From Rathayibacter sp. VKM Ac-2760 (GTDB lineage: Bacteria > Actinomycetota > Actinomycetes > Actinomycetales > Microbacteriaceae): DNA of 64,000 nucleotides. The first letter of the stretch is position 1, and each line of letters begins with the position of its first letter. The stretch is taken from the NCBI RefSeq assembly GCF_009834185.1, contig NZ_CP047173.1, forward strand, positions 1,391,725 to 1,455,724, in the 5' to 3' direction. The translations under genes and the position numbers were made by a program. This document shows positions 7,321 through 16,800 of the stretch, in pieces. Below the pieces are notes generated by a model. The model saw only the letters and a program-made list of their open reading frames with translations. It did no database searches and was not told the DNA's origin.

Positions 7321-8706
7321 TCAGGCCGCGCCGAGGCGGGTGACGGCGGAGGTGATCGCCGGGGTGCTCGCGCCGTCGGGCCAGCGGAGGGTGACGCCCT
7401 CGCCGGGGACGACGCGGCCGATGGCGGCGGTGGCGCTGTGCGGGGTGCCCATCCGGGAGGCGCCGGGGCGGTCGGCGGTGAGCATCGCGAAGCCGGGGAA
7501 GCAGGAGAGCCAGTCGGCGAGGCCGGCGGCGGAGGGGCGGGGGATCGCGGCGACCTCGAGCTCGGCACCCGCCCCGGACGCCTCCGCGAGCATGCCGACG
7601 GTGCCGACGAGCCCGGCCATGCTGACGTCCTTCGCGCCGTCGGGAGCGCAGGCGCCGACGCTCGCAGCGAGGGCGCGGAGCACCTCCGGCGGGCGGCCGG
7701 AGGTCGAGTCCCACTGCAGTCCCGCGTAGCCCGGGCGCCACGCGCCGGAGAGGTCGGCGGTCAGGCTCAGCTGGTGTCCGATCGGGGCGCTGCCCGGGAC
7801 CGGGCGCGCGGTGCGGCCGAGGCCGGTGACCGAGAGCGCGGCGGGCACTCCGAGCTGGGTGTGGCCGCCGAGCAGTGGCACGCCCCAGGCCTCGCTGCCG
7901 GCGCGCAGGCCGCGGAGGATGCGGGCGGCGAAGGAGGCGTCCCGCGCGCCGACCGCGTCGAGCAGGCCGACCGGATCGGCGCCCATCGCGGTGAGGTCGT
8001 TGACGTTGACGAGCACCGAGCACCAGCCCGCCCACTCCGGGTCGCGCTCGACCATCGAGGGGACGATCGCGTCGCAGACGGCGACGAGGTCGGAGCCGGG
8101 GACGGGCGCGCCGTCGTCGCCGCGGAAGCCCGGGCCGCCGAGCTGGCCGGCGAACGCGTCGAGCAGCGGACCGAGGGCGGCCTTGGCCCCGCGAGCGAGG
8201 CGGTCGAAGCGGTCGATCGGCCAGCGCATCCGCACGTGCGGGACGCCGGCCACCTCCGCCGTGCCGAGGCGGTCCCAGCCGAGCCGGCGGAAGAGCACCT
8301 CGTTCTGGGTCTGCACCGTCGCCTCGAAGCGGAGCACGCCGCGCGCCTCGGCCTCGGCGCAGGCGGCCCGGACCAGCGCGGCACCGAGGCCGGCGCCGCC
8401 GCGGGCGCTGCGGCGGACGACCAGGCGACTGCCGGTCCACCAGCCCAGATCGTGCTCCAGCGCGGGCGCGATCCGCACGCCACCGAGCACGCCGTCGGCC
8501 GAGCGCGCGACCAGGACGACCGTGCGCGGATCCTCGTCGAGAGTGTCGCGGTCGTCGGCGTCGAAGAGGCCCTGCTCGGCGACGAAGACCTCGCGGCGCA
8601 GCGCCCGGTAGGCGGCCACCTCGGCCGGGTCCGCGACCACGACCACGAAGGCCTCGCGGGCAGCCGGCGCGACCGCGCGGACCCCCTCGAGGATCGAGAG
8701 CTGCAT
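7321..8706 (-). CDS. GNAT N-acetyltransferase fused to AIR-synthase-related (PurM-like) domain (MSMEG_0567/Sll0786 + Sll0787 type)
   Basis: 461 aa from the ATG at 8706 (MQLSILEG...). GNAT core (VFVAEQGLF, ARGGAGLGAALV) is followed by a PurM-like region (VNVNDLTAMGADP, LLGGHT). There is a 1-nt TGATG overlap with the radical SAM gene. Confidence 0.8.
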   Translation of the reverse strand: MQLSILEGVRAVAPAAREAFVVVVADPAEVAAYRALRREVFVAEQGLFDADDRDTLDEDPRTVVLVARSADGVLGGVRIAPALEHDLGWWTGSRLVVRRSARGGAGLGAALVRAACAEAEARGVLRFEATVQTQNEVLFRRLGWDRLGTAEVAGVPHVRMRWPIDRFDRLARGAKAALGPLLDAFAGQLGGPGFRGDDGAPVPGSDLVAVCDAIVPSMVERDPEWAGWCSVLVNVNDLTAMGADPVGLLDAVGARDASFAARILRGLRAGSEAWGVPLLGGHTQLGVPAALSVTGLGRTARPVPGSAPIGHQLSLTADLSGAWRPGYAGLQWDSTSGRPPEVLRALAASVGACAPDGAKDVSMAGLVGTVGMLAEASGAGAELEVAAIPRPSAAGLADWLSCFPGFAMLTADRPGASRMGTPHSATAAIGRVVPGEGVTLRWPDGASTPAITSAVTRLGAA

Positions 8707-9851
8707 CAGGCGCCGGCGGTCTTCAGCACGCCGCAGGCGCCGCAGGCCGCGCAGCCCGCCTTCTGGCCGGAGGAGAGCATCCCCGCCGCGATCAGCAGCG
8801 CGGCGACCTGCTCGCTCACCTTCTCCAGCAGCGAGCCGGCCGGCGGCAGGACGTGGTCCACCTCCGTCGCGAGCGTGCCCCTGAGCGGCCGGAACGGCAC
8901 CACGAACGGGTAGATCCCGCGCTCGATCAGCTCGCCGGCGCTCGCGACCAGCTCGTCGGGATCCTCGCCGAGGCCGACGAGCAGGTAGGTCGAGACCTGG
9001 TTGCGGCCGAAGATCCGCACCGCCTCGTCCCAGGCCTCCCAGTACTTCGCGGTCGAGACGCGCGCCTTGCCGGGGGTCCAGCGGCGGCGGATGTCGTCGT
9101 CCATCGACTCGATGTGGATGCCGATCGAGAGGGCGCCGGCGTCCTTCAGCTCCTGCAGCGCGGCGAGGTCCTCCGGCGGCTCGCACTGCACCTGGATCGG
9201 CAGCCCGGGCACGGCCTCGAGCACAGCGCGGACGCAGCGGGCGAGGTGCCGGGCGCCGCGGTCGCGACCCTTCGAGGTGCCGGTGGTCATCACCATCTGG
9301 CGGATGCCGTCCAGCCGGGCGGCTGCCTCGGCGACCTCGGCGAGCTGCGCGGGGGTCTTCACGGCGATGGTGGAGTCGTTGGCGAGCGAGGCCTCGATCG
9401 CGCAGAAGCGGCAGCGCTCGGCCGCGTCGTAGCGCATGCAGGTCTGCACGACGGTGGTGGCGAGGATGTTCCGGCCGTGCAGGCGGGCGATCTTCTCGTA
9501 GGAGACGCCGTCGGCGGTGCTGAGGTCGTAGAAGCGCGGGCGCTTCACCGGCTCCACGTCGAGGCCGATGTCGGCGCCGTCGAGCAGGAGCCGGCCGTTG
9601 GTCACGGCGTAGGGGCTCTTCGGGTTGACGGGGATGGCGGCGCCGAGGCCGCCGAGCATCACGTGGCCGTCGTCGCTCGGGCCGGCGCCCGCCTCGCGGT
9701 GCACGGGGGCGTCGACGCGGATGCCCTGCAGGGCGATGTCGACGCGGGTGCGCAGGGCGGACGGGGCGGCTCCGCAGCCGGAGTCGGCGGGAGCGGTGTC
9801 GGTCGGGGCACTGTCGATGGTGCGGAGGCGGGGCATCTGCAGGTCGGTCAT
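8706..9851 (-). CDS. radical SAM protein (MSMEG_0568 type)
   Basis: 381-aa ORF with Cys triad C138-x8-C147-x2-C150 (TCMRYDAAERCRFCA) and a C-terminal CAACGAC. The cluster context matches Nit1C. Confidence 0.8.
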   Translation of the reverse strand: MTDLQMPRLRTIDSAPTDTAPADSGCGAAPSALRTRVDIALQGIRVDAPVHREAGAGPSDDGHVMLGGLGAAIPVNPKSPYAVTNGRLLLDGADIGLDVEPVKRPRFYDLSTADGVSYEKIARLHGRNILATTVVQTCMRYDAAERCRFCAIEASLANDSTIAVKTPAQLAEVAEAAARLDGIRQMVMTTGTSKGRDRGARHLARCVRAVLEAVPGLPIQVQCEPPEDLAALQELKDAGALSIGIHIESMDDDIRRRWTPGKARVSTAKYWEAWDEAVRIFGRNQVSTYLLVGLGEDPDELVASAGELIERGIYPFVVPFRPLRGTLATEVDHVLPPAGSLLEKVSEQVAALLIAAGMLSSGQKAGCAACGACGVLKTAGA

Positions 9852-15385: not shown

Positions 15386-16800
15386 TGCGCCGCTCGTTCT
15401 CGCGCTGCTTCTCGGCGCTCGCCGCGGAGGATCCCGAGCGGGTCGTGGTCGTCGCGGACGACGCGACGCTCACCGCGGGCGCCCTGGACCGGGCCTCGAA
15501 CCGGCTCGCGCGCGCCTACGCGGCGCGGGGCGTCACTCCGGACTCGCTCGTCGCGGTCTCGCTGCCGAACTCGGCCGAGCTGGTGCTGGCCTGCGCCGCG
15601 ATCTGGAAGGCGGGCGCGACGCCGCAGCCGCTCTCGCGCGGGCTCTCGGCGCGGGAGCTCGCCGAGGTCGGCGCGCTCGGGCGGCCCACGCTGAGCGTCG
15701 GCGTCGAGCTGGAGGGCGTGCCGTTCGTCCCCGCCGGCTTCGAGCCCGACCCGGCGCTGCCGGACGACGAGCTGCCGGATCTCCGGGCGGCGTCGTGGAA
15801 GGCGCCCGCCTCCTCCGGCAGCACCGGTCGGCCGAAGATCGTTCTCGCGGCGGCTCCCGCGCTGATGGACCCGACGCAGCCGGTCGCGGCCTTCCTGCCG
15901 CGGGAGGGGGTGCAGCTCGTGGCCGGGCCGCTCACCCACTCCGCGACCTTCACCTACGCGTTCCGCGGGCTCCTGACCGGGCAGCGGCTGGTGATCCTGC
16001 CGCGCTTCGACGAGGCGCGGGTGCTCGCCGCGATCGCGGCGCACCGGGTGACCTGGGCGCTGCTGGTGCCGACGATGATCCACCGGCTGCTGCGGACGCC
16101 CGCGCACCGGGACGCGGACGTGTCGTCGCTCGAGACGGTGCTGCACCTGGGCTCGCCGTGCCCGCCCGCGGACAAGCGCGCGCTGATCGACTGGGTCGGG
16201 GCGGAGAAGGTGGTCGAGGTCTACGCGGGCAGCGAGTCGAACGGGCTGACGATGATCCGCGGCGACGAGTGGCTGGAGCGGCCCGGCAGTGTCGGCCGGC
16301 CGATCGGCGGCACGGAGCTTCGGGTGCTGCGCCCGGACGGGACGGAGTGCGCGGTCGGTGAGCCGGGGCGGGTCTGGCTGAAGCGCGGCGAGCCGACCTA
16401 CCGCTACCTCGGCGGGGAGTCGAAGCGGACGGAGGACGGCTGGGACACGCTCGGCGACGTCGGCTCGGTCGACGCCGACGGCTACCTGACCGTGCTCGAC
16501 CGGGCCGACGACCTGATCCTGCGCGGCGGGGTGAACGTCTACCCGGCGGAGATCGAGCGGGTGCTGGAGGAGCACCCGGCGGTGCGCGGGGCGGTCGCGT
16601 ACGGCGTCCCGGATGCGGAGCTGGGCCAGGCGATCGAGGCGGTGGTCGACATCGCGGACGCCGCAGTGACGGCGGAGGAGCTGCTCGCCTTCGCGCGCGA
16701 GCACCTCGGCTCACGCGCGCCGCGGGCGCTGCGGCTCCAGCGCTCGCCGCTGCGCGACGACGCGGGCAAGGTGCGGCGCGCGGCGCTCGCGGACGACTGA
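15385..16800 (+). CDS. AMP-dependent synthetase/ligase (acyl/aryl-CoA ligase family)
   Basis: The ATG at 15385 shares 1 nt with the GT stop (TGATG). Adenylation motifs are SSGSTGRPK, YAGSE and GDVGSVDADGYLTVLDR. Confidence 0.8.
   Translation: MRRSFSRCFSALAAEDPERVVVVADDATLTAGALDRASNRLARAYAARGVTPDSLVAVSLPNSAELVLACAAIWKAGATPQPLSRGLSARELAEVGALGRPTLSVGVELEGVPFVPAGFEPDPALPDDELPDLRAASWKAPASSGSTGRPKIVLAAAPALMDPTQPVAAFLPREGVQLVAGPLTHSATFTYAFRGLLTGQRLVILPRFDEARVLAAIAAHRVTWALLVPTMIHRLLRTPAHRDADVSSLETVLHLGSPCPPADKRALIDWVGAEKVVEVYAGSESNGLTMIRGDEWLERPGSVGRPIGGTELRVLRPDGTECAVGEPGRVWLKRGEPTYRYLGGESKRTEDGWDTLGDVGSVDADGYLTVLDRADDLILRGGVNVYPAEIERVLEEHPAVRGAVAYGVPDAELGQAIEAVVDIADAAVTAEELLAFAREHLGSRAPRALRLQRSPLRDDAGKVRRAALADD

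What the first reader, a model, noticed from the sequence alone, without database searches (positions are those of the whole stretch)
7321..16800. Split and extended Nit1C / MSMEG_0565-0572-type cluster of unresolved chemistry
Gene by gene, the products match the conserved cluster known as Nit1C (Synechocystis sll0783-sll0787; M. smegmatis MSMEG_0565-0572). They are an Sll0783-like protein (10230-10799), a nitrilase with an intact E-K-C triad (10809-11687), a 106-aa MSMEG_0570-like protein, a flavin oxidoreductase (11997-13271), a second C-N hydrolase (13353-14207), a GT (14279-15385), a radical SAM enzyme (8706-9851), and a GNAT fused to a PurM/AIR-synthase-like domain (7321-8706). Established knowledge: the cluster is widespread and is associated with nitrogen starvation and, in some species, with growth on cyanide. 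To my knowledge its substrate and product have not been defined. Seen here: it is split into two divergent operons around a 378-bp control region, and the genes are chained by 1-8-nt overlaps. It is extended by an adenylate-forming ligase (15385-16800, TGATG overlap with the GT). Downstream of the radical-SAM arm there is an aldehyde dehydrogenase ATGA-coupled to hldE. Inference: radical SAM, an ATP-using PurM-like enzyme, GNAT, nitrilase, flavoprotein, ligase and GT together look like a small-molecule biosynthetic or remodelling pathway, possibly with a glycosylated product, rather than plain nitrile catabolism.
Basis: partly seen in the sequence, partly recalled or inferred. Interest (0 to 1): 0.8.

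Follow-up and report, generated by a model that had tools for sequence, protein, structure and literature searches.

The report
Split GlnR-controlled nitrogen-starvation gene cluster
This is the Rathayibacter copy of a widespread, already named but biochemically unsolved nitrogen-starvation gene cluster (the mycobacterial "gpr"/MSMEG_0565-0572 type, a cousin of Nit1C); it is rearranged into two back-to-back operons that each carry a GlnR-type control site, it has gained an acyl-CoA-type ligase, and one of its two "nitrilase-like" enzymes lacks the catalytic cysteine.

Summary
Seven NCBIfam models pass their cutoffs (MSMEG_0565, 0567 GNAT and C-terminal domains, 0568, 0569, 0570, 0572). Both C-N hydrolases fail the Nit6803 nitrilase model (40 and 32 bits against 502.6). 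The cluster is therefore the actinobacterial gpr/MSMEG_0565-0572 type, not Nit1C in the strict sense.

Findings from 80 related loci:
- Gene content is constant, but gene order occurs in at least five arrangements. The divergent split is shared with other Rathayibacter, one unclassified Microbacteriaceae strain and Cellulomonas.
- The ligase follows the GT in 26 of 68 loci, so it is a real accessory gene. ALDH-hldE are neighbours only in the two closest species.
- The 378-bp region holds two conserved GlnR-type boxes, one facing each operon. The same box precedes the cluster in 41 loci.
- The second hydrolase is a conserved Asp-Lys-Glu-Asp variant with no nucleophilic Cys.
- Strong hairpins bracket the unit, with the ligase inside and ALDH outside.

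The chemistry remains unsolved. Most likely this is one GlnR-induced module that remodels an internal nitrogen-containing metabolite. It is a variant of a known kind, of moderate interest.

The parts
7238..7305 (.). Palindromic hairpin (outer stem ACAACATCAGCTGAGA/TCTCAGCTGATGTT). It lies between the GNAT/AIRS stop codon and the ALDH start and is the likely 3' boundary of the minus-strand operon.
   Evidence: The RNA fold is -54.7 kcal/mol (z -7.2). It belongs to a repeat family with 9 arm matches in the window against 0.15 expected. A copy sits at the same place in L001.
7321..8706 (-). Fusion of a GNAT N-acyltransferase with a PurM/AIR-synthase-like ATP-using domain (MSMEG_0567 orthologue).
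   Evidence: TIGR04045 116.4 bits (cutoff 68.45) on residues 22-167; TIGR04050 437.4 bits (cutoff 312.2) on residues 168-457. Pfam AIRS, AIRS_C and GNAT domains match. The DX4GAXP motif DLTAMGADP is visible in the translation. NCBI names it 'MSMEG_0567/sll0787 family protein'.
8706..9851 (-). Variant radical SAM enzyme (MSMEG_0568 orthologue). It has CX8CX2C in place of the canonical CX3CX2C, plus a C-terminal CX2CX2C.
   Evidence: TIGR04043 496.5 bits (cutoff 303.7). C138, C147, C150, C367, C370 and C373 are invariant; the nearest solved relative is lipoyl synthase (E 1e-4); 100% identical to the protein of Rathayibacter sp. VKM Ac-2760. The start at 9851 has an AGGAG ribosome-binding site and is conserved.
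9929..9967 (-). GlnR-type box 2, facing the radical-SAM operon: GTAAC-n6-GCGTT-n6-GTCAT-n6-GAAACA.
   Evidence: GTAAC and GAAACA are invariant in six otherwise diverged Rathayibacter/Microbacteriaceae intergenic regions. The half GTCAT-n6-GAAACA fits the Gn2A(C/T)-n6-GnAACA consensus of PMC3662644.
10020..10036 (+). GlnR-type box 1, facing the 0572 operon: GAAACCACTTCGAAACA.
   Evidence: this is the only match to Gn2AC-n6-GnAACA in the 64 kb (0.39 expected for the whole window); the same 16-mer lies upstream of, and oriented towards, the first cluster gene in 41 of 80 loci (41 of 57 matches in 1.5 Mb). It is invariant in alignment A4.
10046..10052 (+). Conserved TTGACTG (-35-like element), 9 nt downstream of box 1.
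   Evidence: its reverse complement CAGTCAA is invariant in all six aligned intergenic regions. That it acts as a promoter element is inferred, not shown.
10230..10799 (+). MSMEG_0572/Sll0783 (NitB) family protein with a DsrE/YchN fold and an invariant Cys143.
10809..11687 (+). Active C-N hydrolase (CN1, MSMEG_0571 orthologue) with E41-K120-E127-C152. It is not a Nit6803-family nitrilase.
   Evidence: the catalytic tetrad is kept in 77 of 77 sequences. TIGR04048 scores only 39.9 bits against a cutoff of 502.6; the nearest solved relatives are N-carbamoylputrescine amidohydrolase (5h8i) and PH0642.
11680..12000 (+). MSMEG_0570 (NitG) family small protein. It has an orphan fold, an invariant Cys63 and a near-invariant N-terminal MPEM.
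11997..13271 (+). MSMEG_0569 (NitH) family FAD/NAD(P)H flavoprotein, FMO-like.
   Evidence: TIGR04046 634.7 bits (cutoff 498.35). Pfam Pyr_redox_3, Lys_Orn_oxgnase and FMO-like; the nearest solved relatives are type II flavin monooxygenases (4usr, 4a9w).
13353..14207 (+). Cys-less paralogue of CN1 (CN2, MSMEG_0566 orthologue): D43-K118-E125-D150.
   Evidence: 44% identical to CN1. Glu->Asp in 69 of 71 sequences and Cys->Asp in 70 of 71, while Lys and the second Glu are kept in 71 of 71; the nearest 50%-identity representatives all carry Asp at the Cys site. NCBI names it only 'carbon-nitrogen hydrolase family protein'.
14279..15385 (+). MSMEG_0565 family GT4 glycosyltransferase.
   Evidence: TIGR04047 403.8 bits (cutoff 259.85); the nearest solved relatives are PimA and MshA. 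It is present in 73 of 80 loci.
15385..16800 (+). ANL-superfamily adenylate-forming (acyl-CoA-type) ligase, a lineage-specific accessory gene of the cluster.
   Evidence: Pfam AMP-binding plus AMP-binding_C; below every equivalog cutoff (best BaiB, 272 vs 650); the nearest solved relative is BaiB 4lgc (E 2.6e-65); it lies directly downstream of the GT in 26 of 68 loci. It overlaps the GT stop by 1 nt.
16834..16934 (.). Second copy of the palindromic hairpin, just after the ligase stop. It is the likely 3' boundary of the plus-strand operon.
   Evidence: -66.4 kcal/mol, z -6.6, with the same outer-stem sequence as the element at 7238-7305.

Best explanation
The region 7238-16934 of Rathayibacter sp. 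VKM Ac-2760 is an orthologue of the mycobacterial gpr (MSMEG_0565-0572) nitrogen-starvation cluster, the actinobacterial relative of Nit1C.

Shown by the sequence and comparisons:
- All eight core gene families are present, plus one accessory ligase.
- Compared with the mycobacterial order (0572-0571-0570-0569-0568-0567-0566-0565), the radical-SAM and GNAT/PurM-like pair has been moved out and placed divergently.
- Each divergent unit faces its own conserved GlnR-type box and ends at a strong hairpin.
- One of the two C-N hydrolases is intact. The other has Asp in place of the nucleophilic Cys across the family.

Inferred:
- Both halves are switched on together by GlnR when nitrogen is limiting, as in M. 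smegmatis. They act as one module on an internal small nitrogen-containing metabolite, since no transporter or dedicated regulator is co-conserved.
- The PurM-like domain activates a carbonyl or amide oxygen with ATP.
- The variant radical-SAM enzyme and the NAD(P)H flavoprotein carry out radical and oxidative steps.
- The GNAT domain acylates an amine. Where the ligase is present, it either supplies the acyl-CoA for this step or activates the acid product.
- CN1, which is amidase/carbamoylase-like rather than a true nitrilase, cleaves a C-N bond and releases or supplies ammonia.
- CN2 cannot perform thioester catalysis and serves as a non-catalytic or ligand-binding partner.
- The GT4 enzyme glycosylates an intermediate or the product.

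The physiological result is nitrogen economy together with a shift in the NADPH/redox state, which is the phenotype reported for both gpr and sll0783 mutants.

My confidence is about 0.9 for identity, module boundaries and GlnR-type control. It is about 0.35-0.4 that the net purpose is nitrogen salvage or remodelling rather than synthesis of a dedicated product. ALDH and hldE are not part of the system.
For: Family membership:
- Seven NCBIfam models pass their cutoffs.

Synteny in 80 actinobacterial loci:
- The same eight families occur in at least five gene orders.
- The window's divergent split is shared with L001-L005, L017 and L025.
- In L003-L005 the split cluster, with its ligase, sits among different flanking genes, so it behaves as one unit.

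Regulation:
- Box 1 is the only Gn2AC-n6-GnAACA match in the 64 kb.
- The same box precedes the cluster in 41 loci, accounting for 41 of 57 matches in 1.5 Mb.
- Two footprints are conserved across otherwise diverged intergenic regions.
- In M. smegmatis, GlnR ChIP-seq gives a peak at MSMEG_0572, which is induced 263-fold (PMC3662644). Induction exceeds 500-fold and depends on GlnR, with peroxide and NADPH phenotypes (PMC6039565).

Boundaries:
- Hairpins of -55 and -66 kcal/mol lie directly after the GNAT/AIRS gene and directly after the ligase.

Ligase:
- It is adjacent to the GT in 26 of 68 loci.

Hydrolases:
- CN1 keeps E-K-E-C in 77 of 77 sequences. CN2 is D-K-E-D (69-71 of 71).
- The two are 44% identical paralogues.
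- CN1's nearest solved relatives are carbamoyl-amidases.

Other:
- No conserved transporter or regulator was found among the flanking genes.
Against: - No expression, binding or metabolite data exist for this organism. GlnR itself was not looked for, as it is not expected within the window.
- The boxes could be bound by another OmpR-family regulator.
- The enzyme roles are family-level generalities. No substrate is known in any organism.
- GT4, ANL ligase, GNAT, radical SAM and PurM-like enzymes are as typical of biosynthesis as of salvage.
- The conserved Asp in CN2 could support unknown chemistry instead of marking a dead enzyme.
- The hairpins lack a T-tract (one search found no classical terminator), and they belong to a dispersed repeat family. 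Their terminator role is therefore inferred.
- 0570 and CN2 are missing from some loci, so the 'one obligate module' picture is not absolute.
Confidence: 0.6

Rival explanations
1. The cluster is a biosynthetic pathway that builds a dedicated small molecule, possibly glycosylated and acylated. The GT, ligase, GNAT, PurM-like and radical-SAM enzymes are the builders, and the C-N hydrolase acts as a tailoring enzyme or as an ammonia-donating (glutaminase-like) subunit.
For: - The GT4 gene is a core member of the actinobacterial version, present in 73 of 80 loci.
- The ligase recurs.
- No transporter is co-conserved.
- Both hydrolases give sub-threshold hits to the glutaminase domain of NAD+ synthase.
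- Podar et al. placed the Nit1C AIRS genes next to archaeal PurL-like genes. Together with the previous point, this makes a pairing of 'ammonia donor plus ATP-dependent amidation' chemically coherent.
- PMC7815647 notes that NCBI describes the cluster as possibly biosynthetic and suggests a metabolon.
- The NADPH and peroxide phenotypes are not typical of simple nitrogen scavenging.
Against: - No product is known from any organism in twenty years.
- The cluster is part of nitrogen-scavenging regulons: GlnR and a sigma-54 NitA regulator in Pseudomonas.
- The GT, ligase and CN2 are absent from most Nit1C clusters, so they are not part of the conserved chemistry.
- Making a nitrogen-containing product during nitrogen starvation would be costly.
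Confidence: 0.3
2. The cluster is Nit1C in the strict sense: a nitrile/cyanide assimilation operon in which a nitrilase hydrolyses a cyanohydrin or nitrile to supply ammonia, as in cyanide-utilising (cyanotrophic) Pseudomonas.
For: - Six of the seven Nit1C gene families have orthologues here.
- Nit1C is required for growth on cyanide in Pseudomonas.
- CN1 has an intact catalytic tetrad.
Against: - The defining subfamily-1/Nit6803 nitrilase is absent: 39.9 and 32.3 bits against a cutoff of 502.6. Podar et al. state that Nit1C is strictly confined to that nitrilase clade.
- CN1's closest solved relatives are carbamoyl-amidases, not branch-1 nitrilases.
- The actinobacterial cluster carries extra core genes (CN2 and the GT).
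Confidence: 0.08
3. The two arms are unrelated neighbours that lie together by chance, and the ligase is merely the next gene along.
For: - Gene order is highly fluid between lineages.
- There are three intergenic gaps of 9-81 nt within the plus-strand arm.
Against: - The same eight families co-occur in all complete loci despite at least five different orders.
- Both arms, with the ligase, recur together among different flanking genes (L003-L005).
- Both arms carry conserved GlnR-type boxes.
- The ligase recurs in three different positions relative to the cluster.
Confidence: 0.02
4. This is the proposal made for M. smegmatis gpr. The UGA stop of the first hydrolase would be read as selenocysteine, giving a nitrilase-flavoprotein fusion selenoprotein.
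For: - In the window, the CN1 TGA at 11685 is the only stop in that reading frame up to the flavoprotein stop at 13269. The same situation was reported for MSMEG_0571-0569.
Against: - The read-through frame across 11688-11996 translates to Arg/Ala/Gly-rich text typical of out-of-frame GC-rich DNA.
- The other frame encodes the conserved TIGR04042 protein, which has a confident fold.
- In many loci the gene order or spacing differs.
- Long open frames are common at 75% GC.
Confidence: 0.02

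Closest known systems
M. smegmatis gpr operon (MSMEG_0565-0572), the GlnR-dependent peroxide-resistance / nitrogen-starvation cluster (PMC6039565, PMC3662644)
   Same: - The same eight gene families are present: the DsrE-like 0572, the active C-N hydrolase 0571, the small protein 0570, the flavoprotein 0569, the radical SAM enzyme 0568, the GNAT+AIRS fusion 0567, the Cys-less hydrolase 0566 and the GT4 enzyme 0565.
- A GlnR-type box lies upstream.
- The mycobacterial gene order is seen directly in L075 (Mycolicibacterium), L080 and L069.
   Different: - Here the 0568-0567 pair is excised and transcribed divergently, with its own GlnR-type box.
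- An ANL ligase is appended after the GT.
- Induction, the peroxide phenotype and the NADPH phenotype have not been tested in Rathayibacter.
Nit1C cluster (nitBCDEFGH; Synechocystis sll0783-0787, Pseudomonas nit1C; Podar et al. 2005, PMC1199592)
   Same: - Orthologues of NitB, NitD, NitE, NitF (as a fusion with NitE), NitG and NitH are present.
- Both clusters are linked to nitrogen limitation.
- The biochemistry of both is unresolved.
   Different: - The defining Nit6803/subfamily-1 nitrilase is replaced by an amidase-like C-N hydrolase.
- The GNAT and AIRS genes are fused. The AIRS domain matches TIGR04050, not the sll0787 model.
- There are extra core genes (the Cys-less paralogue and the GT4 enzyme).
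- The control site is GlnR-type, not the sigma-54 NitA or NtcA regulators.
Heteromeric nitrilase complexes of grasses (NIT4A/NIT4B), recalled from my own knowledge and not checked here
   Same: Two paralogous nitrilase-fold proteins are encoded together, and one needs the other. This is a precedent for a CN1-CN2 hetero-oligomer.
   Different: Both plant subunits keep the catalytic Cys, whereas CN2 here has Asp. No interaction between CN1 and CN2 has been shown.
Low-molecular-weight thiol pathways (mycothiol MshA-D, bacillithiol BshA-C)
   Same: - The enzyme set is similar: a GT4 enzyme (MshA and BshA are weak hits), an amide hydrolase, an ATP-dependent ligase and a GNAT.
- The phenotype of the mycobacterial orthologue is peroxide resistance.
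   Different: - None of the proteins reaches the cutoffs of those families.
- The hydrolase and the ligase belong to different superfamilies from MshB and MshC.
- This is a resemblance of logic only.

Membership tests
Nit1C cluster (Podar et al. 2005) | A subfamily-1 / Nit6803-family nitrilase (TIGR04048) within the cluster | tested here: not met
   CN1 scores 39.9 bits and CN2 32.3 bits against a cutoff of 502.6; the nearest solved relatives are carbamoyl-amidases. Podar et al. state that Nit1C is confined to that nitrilase clade.
Nit1C cluster (Podar et al. 2005) | NitB (YchN-like), NitD (radical SAM), NitE (GNAT), NitG (about 100 aa) and NitH (flavoprotein) homologues | tested here: met
   TIGR04044, TIGR04043, TIGR04045, TIGR04042 and TIGR04046 all score above their cutoffs. 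One search confirms the YchN/DsrE fold.
Nit1C cluster (Podar et al. 2005) | NitF, an sll0787-type AIR-synthase-like protein (TIGR04049) | tested here: inconclusive
   TIGR04049 scores 170.6 bits against a cutoff of 321.3, which fails. The sister model TIGR04050 (MSMEG_0567 C-terminal domain) scores 437.4 against 312.2, which passes. The domain is fused to the GNAT.
Nit1C cluster (Podar et al. 2005) | A sigma-54-dependent NitA regulator nearby (Pseudomonas type) | not tested
   I ran no search for NitA. The flanking genes I identified are RecQ, HldE, ALDH, GT9, an SDR and a cytidylyltransferase.
gpr / MSMEG_0565-0572 cluster | All eight gene families present together | tested here: met
   One search covers six of the eight proteins through seven family models (0567 by two). 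The 0571 and 0566 orthologues are assigned by synteny and by 81% and 61% identity to the Mycolicibacterium vanbaalenii genes in L075.
gpr / MSMEG_0565-0572 cluster | A single operon in the order 0572 to 0565 | tested here: not met
   here 0568-0567 lie on the minus strand and 0572-0571-0570-0569-0566-0565-ligase on the plus strand, separated by 378 bp.
gpr / MSMEG_0565-0572 cluster | A GlnR binding site upstream | tested here: met
   This is met at the sequence level only. Box 1 (10020-10036) matches Gn2AC-n6-GnAACA perfectly. Box 2 lies at 9929-9967. Both are conserved, and the box is present in 41 loci. Actual GlnR binding cannot be tested with these tools.
gpr / MSMEG_0565-0572 cluster | Strong induction under nitrogen starvation; confers peroxide resistance and raises NADPH/NADP | not testable with these tools
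   This is known only for M. smegmatis.
Nitrilase superfamily (active enzymes) | The Glu-Lys-Glu-Cys catalytic tetrad | tested here: met
   This row is for CN1 (10809-11687): E41, K120, E127 and C152 are kept in 77 of 77 sequences.
Nitrilase superfamily (active enzymes) | The Glu-Lys-Glu-Cys catalytic tetrad, tested in the second paralogue | tested here: not met
   This row is for CN2 (13353-14207): D43, K118, E125, D150. Cys is replaced by Asp in 70 of 71 sequences and the first Glu by Asp in 69 of 71. The nearest representative clusters also carry Asp at the Cys site. The fold-level Pfam match still holds (PF00795, 127 bits).
Radical SAM superfamily | The canonical CX3CX2C cluster-binding motif | tested here: not met
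   The protein has C138-X8-C147-X2-C150, all invariant. It still passes Pfam PF04055 and the NCBIfam 'variant_rSAM' model NF045502 (158.9 vs 125). It is therefore a variant member of the superfamily.
DsrE/YchN/TusD fold family | The fold, with a conserved Cys at a strand-helix junction | tested here: met
   [not shown]
ANL adenylate-forming enzymes | AMP-binding domain plus C-terminal domain, with the core motifs | tested here: met
   Pfam PF00501 and PF13193 match. The motifs SSGSTGRPK, YAGSE, GD.G and the C-terminal GK are visible. No equivalog cutoff is reached, so the substrate is unknown.
Tautomerase superfamily (considered for the 0570 protein because of its conserved N-terminal Met-Pro) | The beta-alpha-beta fold with a catalytic Pro1 | tested here: not met
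   [not shown]
Known anti-phage defence systems | A match to PADLOC models | tested here: not met
   none of the nine proteins matched at E <= 1e-5.

The most novel reading that the evidence does not exclude
The actinobacterial cluster would make, rather than degrade, a small glycosylated and possibly sulfur-containing redox-active metabolite during nitrogen starvation. The parts would work as follows:
- The GT4 enzyme, the ligase, the GNAT and an amide hydrolase follow the logic of mycothiol and bacillithiol synthesis.
- The lipoyl-synthase-like radical-SAM enzyme and the DsrE-fold protein handle sulfur.
- The orphan-fold 0570 protein, with its invariant Cys, acts as a carrier.
- The Cys-less CN2 acts as a dedicated binding subunit of a CN1-CN2 hetero-oligomer.

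This reading would explain the peroxide-resistance and NADPH phenotypes of gpr and sll0783 mutants.
Probability: 0.1. Interest if true: 0.8.

Novelty: new variant of a known kind. Interest (0 to 1): 0.42.

Why it matters
The Nit1C/gpr clusters are among the most widespread conserved bacterial gene clusters that still have no known substrate or product. Nit1C was described in 2005 and was still called obscure in 2021 and 2024.

This window does not solve that problem, but the comparison gives concrete handles for experiments:
- The actinobacterial version should not be treated as a nitrilase operon. Its active hydrolase is amidase-like, and its second hydrolase is a conserved Cys-to-Asp variant. 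That variant is either a pseudoenzyme partner or an unrecognised catalytic type within the nitrilase superfamily.
- Two accessory enzymes travel with the cluster in a third or more of the loci examined: an acyl-CoA-type ligase and an Amidohydro_2 hydrolase. Their substrates could point to the pathway's metabolite.
- A GlnR-type box is conserved in front of the cluster across many actinobacterial genera. This extends the M. smegmatis regulatory result and predicts how to induce the cluster for metabolomics.
- The 0570/NitG protein has a confidently predicted fold with no solved relative.

Tried and rejected
- **A riboswitch or known RNA in the 378-bp region or other gaps.** None was found. Rfam gave only spurious miRNA/snoRNA hits on the hairpins, and the 5' leader is not unusually structured (z -1.1).
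- **Classical terminators and sigma-70 promoters.** None was found. The boundaries rest on the hairpin repeats instead.
- **ALDH/hldE as cluster members.** Rejected on synteny. The ALDH hits next to the Cellulomonas loci are only 34-39% identical and convergent, so they are generic paralogues.
- **A defence-system reading.** This was prompted by a short local 'GT4-conflict' Pfam hit. It is rejected because PADLOC gave no match.
- **A selenocysteine read-through fusion**, as proposed for M. smegmatis. It is not supported here.
- **An Amidohydro_2 accessory gene in the window.** It is absent from the 64 kb.
- **A plasmid origin.** There is no meaningful plasmid match.
- **The afdb50 fold library.** It was unavailable.
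- **A literature search for Cys-less members of the nitrilase superfamily.** It found nothing relevant. This is not proof that none has been described.

Full report
**1. What is there**

The window is high-GC actinobacterial DNA, about 0.69-0.78 GC. The radical-SAM protein is 100% identical to one from Rathayibacter sp. VKM Ac-2760. The GNAT/AIRS protein, both hydrolases and the ligase are exact matches to GenBank proteins QHC58197-QHC58204 of that strain.

Against NCBIfam, seven cluster-specific models pass their curated cutoffs:

| Model | Family | Score | Cutoff |
|---|---|---|---|
| TIGR04045 | MSMEG_0567 GNAT domain | 116.4 | 68.45 |
| TIGR04050 | MSMEG_0567 C-terminal AIR-synthase-like domain | 437.4 | 312.2 |
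| TIGR04043 | MSMEG_0568 radical SAM | 496.5 | 303.7 |
| TIGR04044 | MSMEG_0572/Sll0783 | 242 | 109.85 |
| TIGR04042 | MSMEG_0570 | 126.1 | 79.85 |
| TIGR04046 | MSMEG_0569 flavoprotein | 634.7 | 498.35 |
| TIGR04047 | MSMEG_0565 GT | 403.8 | 259.85 |

Two models fail:
- The Nit6803-family nitrilase model TIGR04048 scores 39.9 bits for 10809-11687 and 32.3 bits for 13353-14207, against a cutoff of 502.6.
- The sll0787-type model TIGR04049 scores 170.6 against 321.3.

The ligase (15385-16800) is a generic ANL enzyme below every equivalog cutoff. Its best NCBIfam hit is BaiB (272 vs 650), and its nearest solved structure is BaiB 4lgc.

The junctions are as follows:
- rSAM/GNAT-AIRS overlap by 1 nt.
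- 0572 and CN1 are separated by a 9-nt gap.
- CN1/0570 overlap by 8 nt.
- 0570/flavoprotein overlap by 4 nt.
- Flavoprotein and CN2 are separated by an 81-nt gap.
- CN2 and GT are separated by a 71-nt gap.
- GT/ligase overlap by 1 nt (TGATG).
- ALDH/hldE overlap by 4 nt (ATGA).

The divergent spacer is 9852-10229, which is 378 bp. The 'Nit1C nitrilase' identification and the 'all chained by overlaps' statement are not.

**2. Which known cluster it is**

Podar et al. defined Nit1C as seven genes and stated that it is strictly confined to a clade of subfamily-1 nitrilases (PMC1199592). Later work equates that clade with TIGR04048 (PMC7815647). That defining gene is absent here.

The eight core families match the M. 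smegmatis MSMEG_0565-0572 operon, named gpr. According to the literature:
- It is a single GlnR-dependent operon induced more than 500-fold without nitrogen.
- It is needed for peroxide resistance.
- It raises NADPH/NADP (PMC6039565).
- It has a GlnR ChIP-seq peak at MSMEG_0572, which is induced 263-fold (PMC3662644).

No paper in the searchable library defines a substrate or product for either cluster type. A 2024 study still lists NitB and NitG as of unknown function.

**3. Comparative synteny**

A scan of one genome per GTDB species with a radical-SAM alignment returned 80 actinobacterial loci. A tblastn search with the window's proteins shows the same gene content in at least five arrangements:

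| Type | Arrangement | Loci |
|---|---|---|
| A | rSAM-GNAT/AIRS divergent from 0572-CN1-0570-flavin-CN2-GT(-ligase); the window's type | L001-L004 Rathayibacter, L005 Microbacteriaceae VKM Ac-2854, L017 and L025 Cellulomonas |
| A' | 0572-rSAM-GNAT/AIRS divergent from CN1...ligase | Clavibacter and Frigoribacterium (L006, L007, L024) |
| B | Colinear rSAM-GNAT/AIRS-0572-... | Microbacterium, Janibacter, Myceligenerans (11 loci) |
| C | Colinear 0572-rSAM-GNAT/AIRS-CN1-... | Most Nocardia, Rhodococcus, Nocardioides and Aeromicrobium loci |
| D | The mycobacterial order | L069, L075, L080 |

The split is therefore lineage-typical and not unique to this strain. Selection evidently acts on co-occurrence of the genes and not on their order.

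The ligase lies directly downstream of the GT, on the same strand, in 26 of the 68 loci that extend at least 1.5 kb beyond the GT. Identity to the window's ligase is 48-90%, and the loci span types A, A', B and C. In L019 and L076 a 52% and a 44% homologue sits divergently upstream, next to the GlnR-type box. An unrelated AMP-binding paralogue in L061 is only 30% identical. The ligase is therefore a genuine, lineage-variable accessory gene.

ALDH, hldE, RecQ, GT9, the SDR and the cytidylyltransferase are shared only with the two closest species, L001 and L002. They are absent around the equally split clusters of L003-L005. Heptose-pathway genes lie on both sides of the cluster: HldE-like at 4326-5801, GT9 at 16966-18111, and a cytidylyltransferase at 19021-19719. 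ALDH-hldE is therefore local context.

A different accessory gene, a 274-aa Amidohydro_2 protein (PF04909), immediately precedes 0572 in 28 loci at 65-82% identity to the L064 copy used as query. It is absent from the window.

**4. Control region**

Position 10020-10036 reads GAAACCACTTCGAAACA. This is a perfect match to the M. smegmatis GlnR consensus Gn2AC-n6-GnAACA and the only such match in the 64 kb (0.39 expected for the whole window, roughly 0.002 for a 378-bp region by proportion).

Across the 80 loci, the stricter 16-mer G..ACC[AG]....G[AC]AAC occurs 57 times in 1.5 Mb. Of these, 41 occurrences, in 41 different loci, lie upstream of the first cluster gene and are oriented towards it. 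That first gene is 0572, rSAM, CN1 or the Amidohydro_2 gene, depending on the architecture.

An alignment of the divergent regions of six Rathayibacter/Microbacteriaceae genomes, which are otherwise only 55% identical per column, shows two footprints:
- Box 1, followed after 9 nt by an invariant TTGACTG (10046-10052), faces 0572.
- On the other strand, GTAAC-n6-GCGTT-n6-GTCAT-n6-GAAACA (9929-9967) faces the radical-SAM gene. This is the classical four-site a-b-a-b layout.

In Cellulomonas and L005, two oppositely oriented boxes are likewise present. Each half of the split cluster has thus kept or gained its own GlnR-type site. This is the sequence-level evidence that the halves are still co-regulated. 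Actual GlnR binding and induction are inferred from M. smegmatis and were not tested.

**5. Boundaries**

A palindromic repeat family, with outer stem ACAACATCAGCTGAGA and a variable interior, has 9 arm matches in the window against 0.15 expected. Two copies bracket the cluster exactly:
- 7238-7305, between the GNAT/AIRS stop and the ALDH start.
- 16834-16934, just after the ligase stop.

As RNA they fold at -54.7 and -66.4 kcal/mol, with z-scores of -7.2 and -6.6. They place the ligase inside the plus-strand unit and ALDH-hldE outside the minus-strand unit. They lack T-tracts and also occur elsewhere in the window (37571-37636 and 46028-46093), so their role as terminators is an inference.

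**6. The proteins**

- **CN1.** It keeps E41-K120-E127-C152 in 77 of 77 sequences. Its nearest solved relatives are N-carbamoylputrescine amidohydrolase and PH0642, not branch-1 nitrilases.
- **CN2.** It is a 44%-identical paralogue of CN1. The first Glu is Asp in 69 of 71 sequences and the nucleophilic Cys is Asp in 70 of 71. Lys and the second Glu are invariant. In a search of 1.84 billion representative proteins, the closest clusters all have Asp at the Cys site (motif IDYDK) and a variable residue (D, G, H, A or E) at the first Glu site. More distant hits are canonical E-K-C. CN2 cannot form the thioester intermediate of this superfamily, yet its Asp is under strong constraint. I read it as a non-catalytic or ligand-binding partner of CN1. 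A new catalytic variant cannot be excluded. CN2 is missing from three otherwise complete loci (L023, L040, L045).
- **0570.** This protein gives a confident model (pLDDT 91.3) with no solved-structure relative. It is not detectable in ten untruncated loci, mostly Nocardia.
- **Radical-SAM enzyme.** It has CX8CX2C plus a C-terminal CX2CX2C, all invariant. It is distantly lipoyl-synthase-like.
- **Flavoprotein.** It resembles two-dinucleotide-site type II FMOs.
- **GT.** It is a GT4 enzyme nearest to PimA and MshA.

**7. How it most likely works**

Shown:
- One conserved gene set of eight core genes plus the ligase.
- Two divergent units, each with a conserved GlnR-type box and a hairpin at its end.
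- One active and one Cys-less hydrolase.

Inferred from M. smegmatis and Synechocystis:
- Induction under nitrogen limitation.
- An effect on the NADPH pool and on peroxide tolerance.

Inferred from family chemistry:
- ATP-dependent activation of a carbonyl or amide oxygen by the PurM-like domain. This is the common mechanism of PurM, PurL, ThiL, SelD and HypE.
- Radical and flavin/NAD(P)H-dependent steps.
- N-acylation by the GNAT, with the ligase supplying the acyl-CoA or activating the acid product.
- C-N cleavage, with release or transfer of ammonia, by CN1.
- Glycosyl transfer by the GT.

No transporter or dedicated regulator is co-conserved, so the substrate is probably an internal metabolite. 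I put about 0.9 on identity, boundaries and type of regulation. I put about 0.35-0.4 on a net nitrogen-salvage or remodelling purpose, about 0.3 on a dedicated biosynthetic product, and less than 0.1 on nitrile or cyanide assimilation.

**8. Novelty and score**

The cluster type is known, and most of its genes are already named in this genome's annotation. To my knowledge, and after searching the held library, the following have not been described:
- The systematic Cys-to-Asp change in the MSMEG_0566 clade.
- The conservation of the GlnR-type box across actinobacterial genera.
- The recurrent ligase and Amidohydro_2 accessory genes.
- The divergent two-box architecture.

These are useful leads on a long-standing open question, but they do not answer it. 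I rate this a variant of a known kind, with interest 0.42.

Noticed in passing
window 7238-7305, 16834-16934, 37571-37636, 46028-46093; half-copy near 34163-34178: A dispersed family of long palindromic hairpins has a conserved outer stem (ACAACATCAGCTGAGA ... TCTCAGCTGATGTTGT) and a variable interior. There are 9 arm matches against 0.15 expected, and the RNA folds reach -66 kcal/mol. It could be a REP-like, MITE-like or terminator-like element. Two copies bracket the cluster. L001 has only the copy on the GNAT/AIRS side.
   Followed up: partly
window 4326-5801 (-), 16966-18111 (+), 18244-18948 (-), 19021-19719 (-), 20392-22461 (-): Heptose-type sugar-nucleotide and glycosylation genes lie on both sides of the cluster: an HldE-like PfkB+cytidylyltransferase, a GT9 heptosyltransferase, an SDR, a second cytidylyltransferase, and an ORF with a SIS domain. 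It looks as if the nitrogen-starvation cluster sits inside, or was inserted into, a glycan gene region. This context is shared only with L001 and L002.
   Followed up: partly
L064:8502-9326 and 27 other loci (e.g. L071:8579-9403); absent from the window: A 274-aa Amidohydro_2 (PF04909) gene immediately precedes the 0572 gene in 28 of 80 loci, at 65-82% identity to the L064 copy. The GlnR-type box lies only about 25-40 nt upstream of its start codon. It is a second recurrent accessory gene of the cluster, and I found no description of it in the papers I read.
   Followed up: partly
window 11685-11997: The CN1 stop codon (TGA at 11685) is the only stop in that frame until the flavoprotein stop at 13269. 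This mirrors the situation that led the gpr paper to propose a selenoprotein fusion. Here the read-through frame looks like out-of-frame GC-rich text, and the alternative frame encodes the conserved 0570 protein. The open frame is most likely a GC-content artefact.
   Followed up: partly
window 8706-9851 (-): The radical-SAM enzyme lacks the canonical CX3CX2C motif. It has an invariant C138-X8-C147-X2-C150 and an invariant C-terminal C367-X2-C370-X2-C373, which may bind a second Fe-S cluster.
   Followed up: partly
[not shown]
   Followed up: partly
loci L001-L080: Identity of CN1 and CN2 to the window's proteins is bimodal. CN1 is 77-99% identical in types A, A', B and D but only 53-67% in type C. 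CN2 is 75-96% identical in types A, A' and B but about 57-64% in types C and D. This suggests two sub-lineages of the hydrolase pair, or past exchange between cluster types.
   Followed up: no
window 13272-13352: The 81-nt spacer between the flavoprotein gene and CN2 contains a short tandem duplication (CCGGCCGCTCGT, two copies) just upstream of a GAGAAGAGGA ribosome-binding region. Its significance is unknown.
   Followed up: no
L024:7999-8285: In Clavibacter michiganensis CASJ009, the 0570 homologue is split into two tblastn segments that meet at one point. This is either a frameshift or a sequencing error.
   Followed up: no
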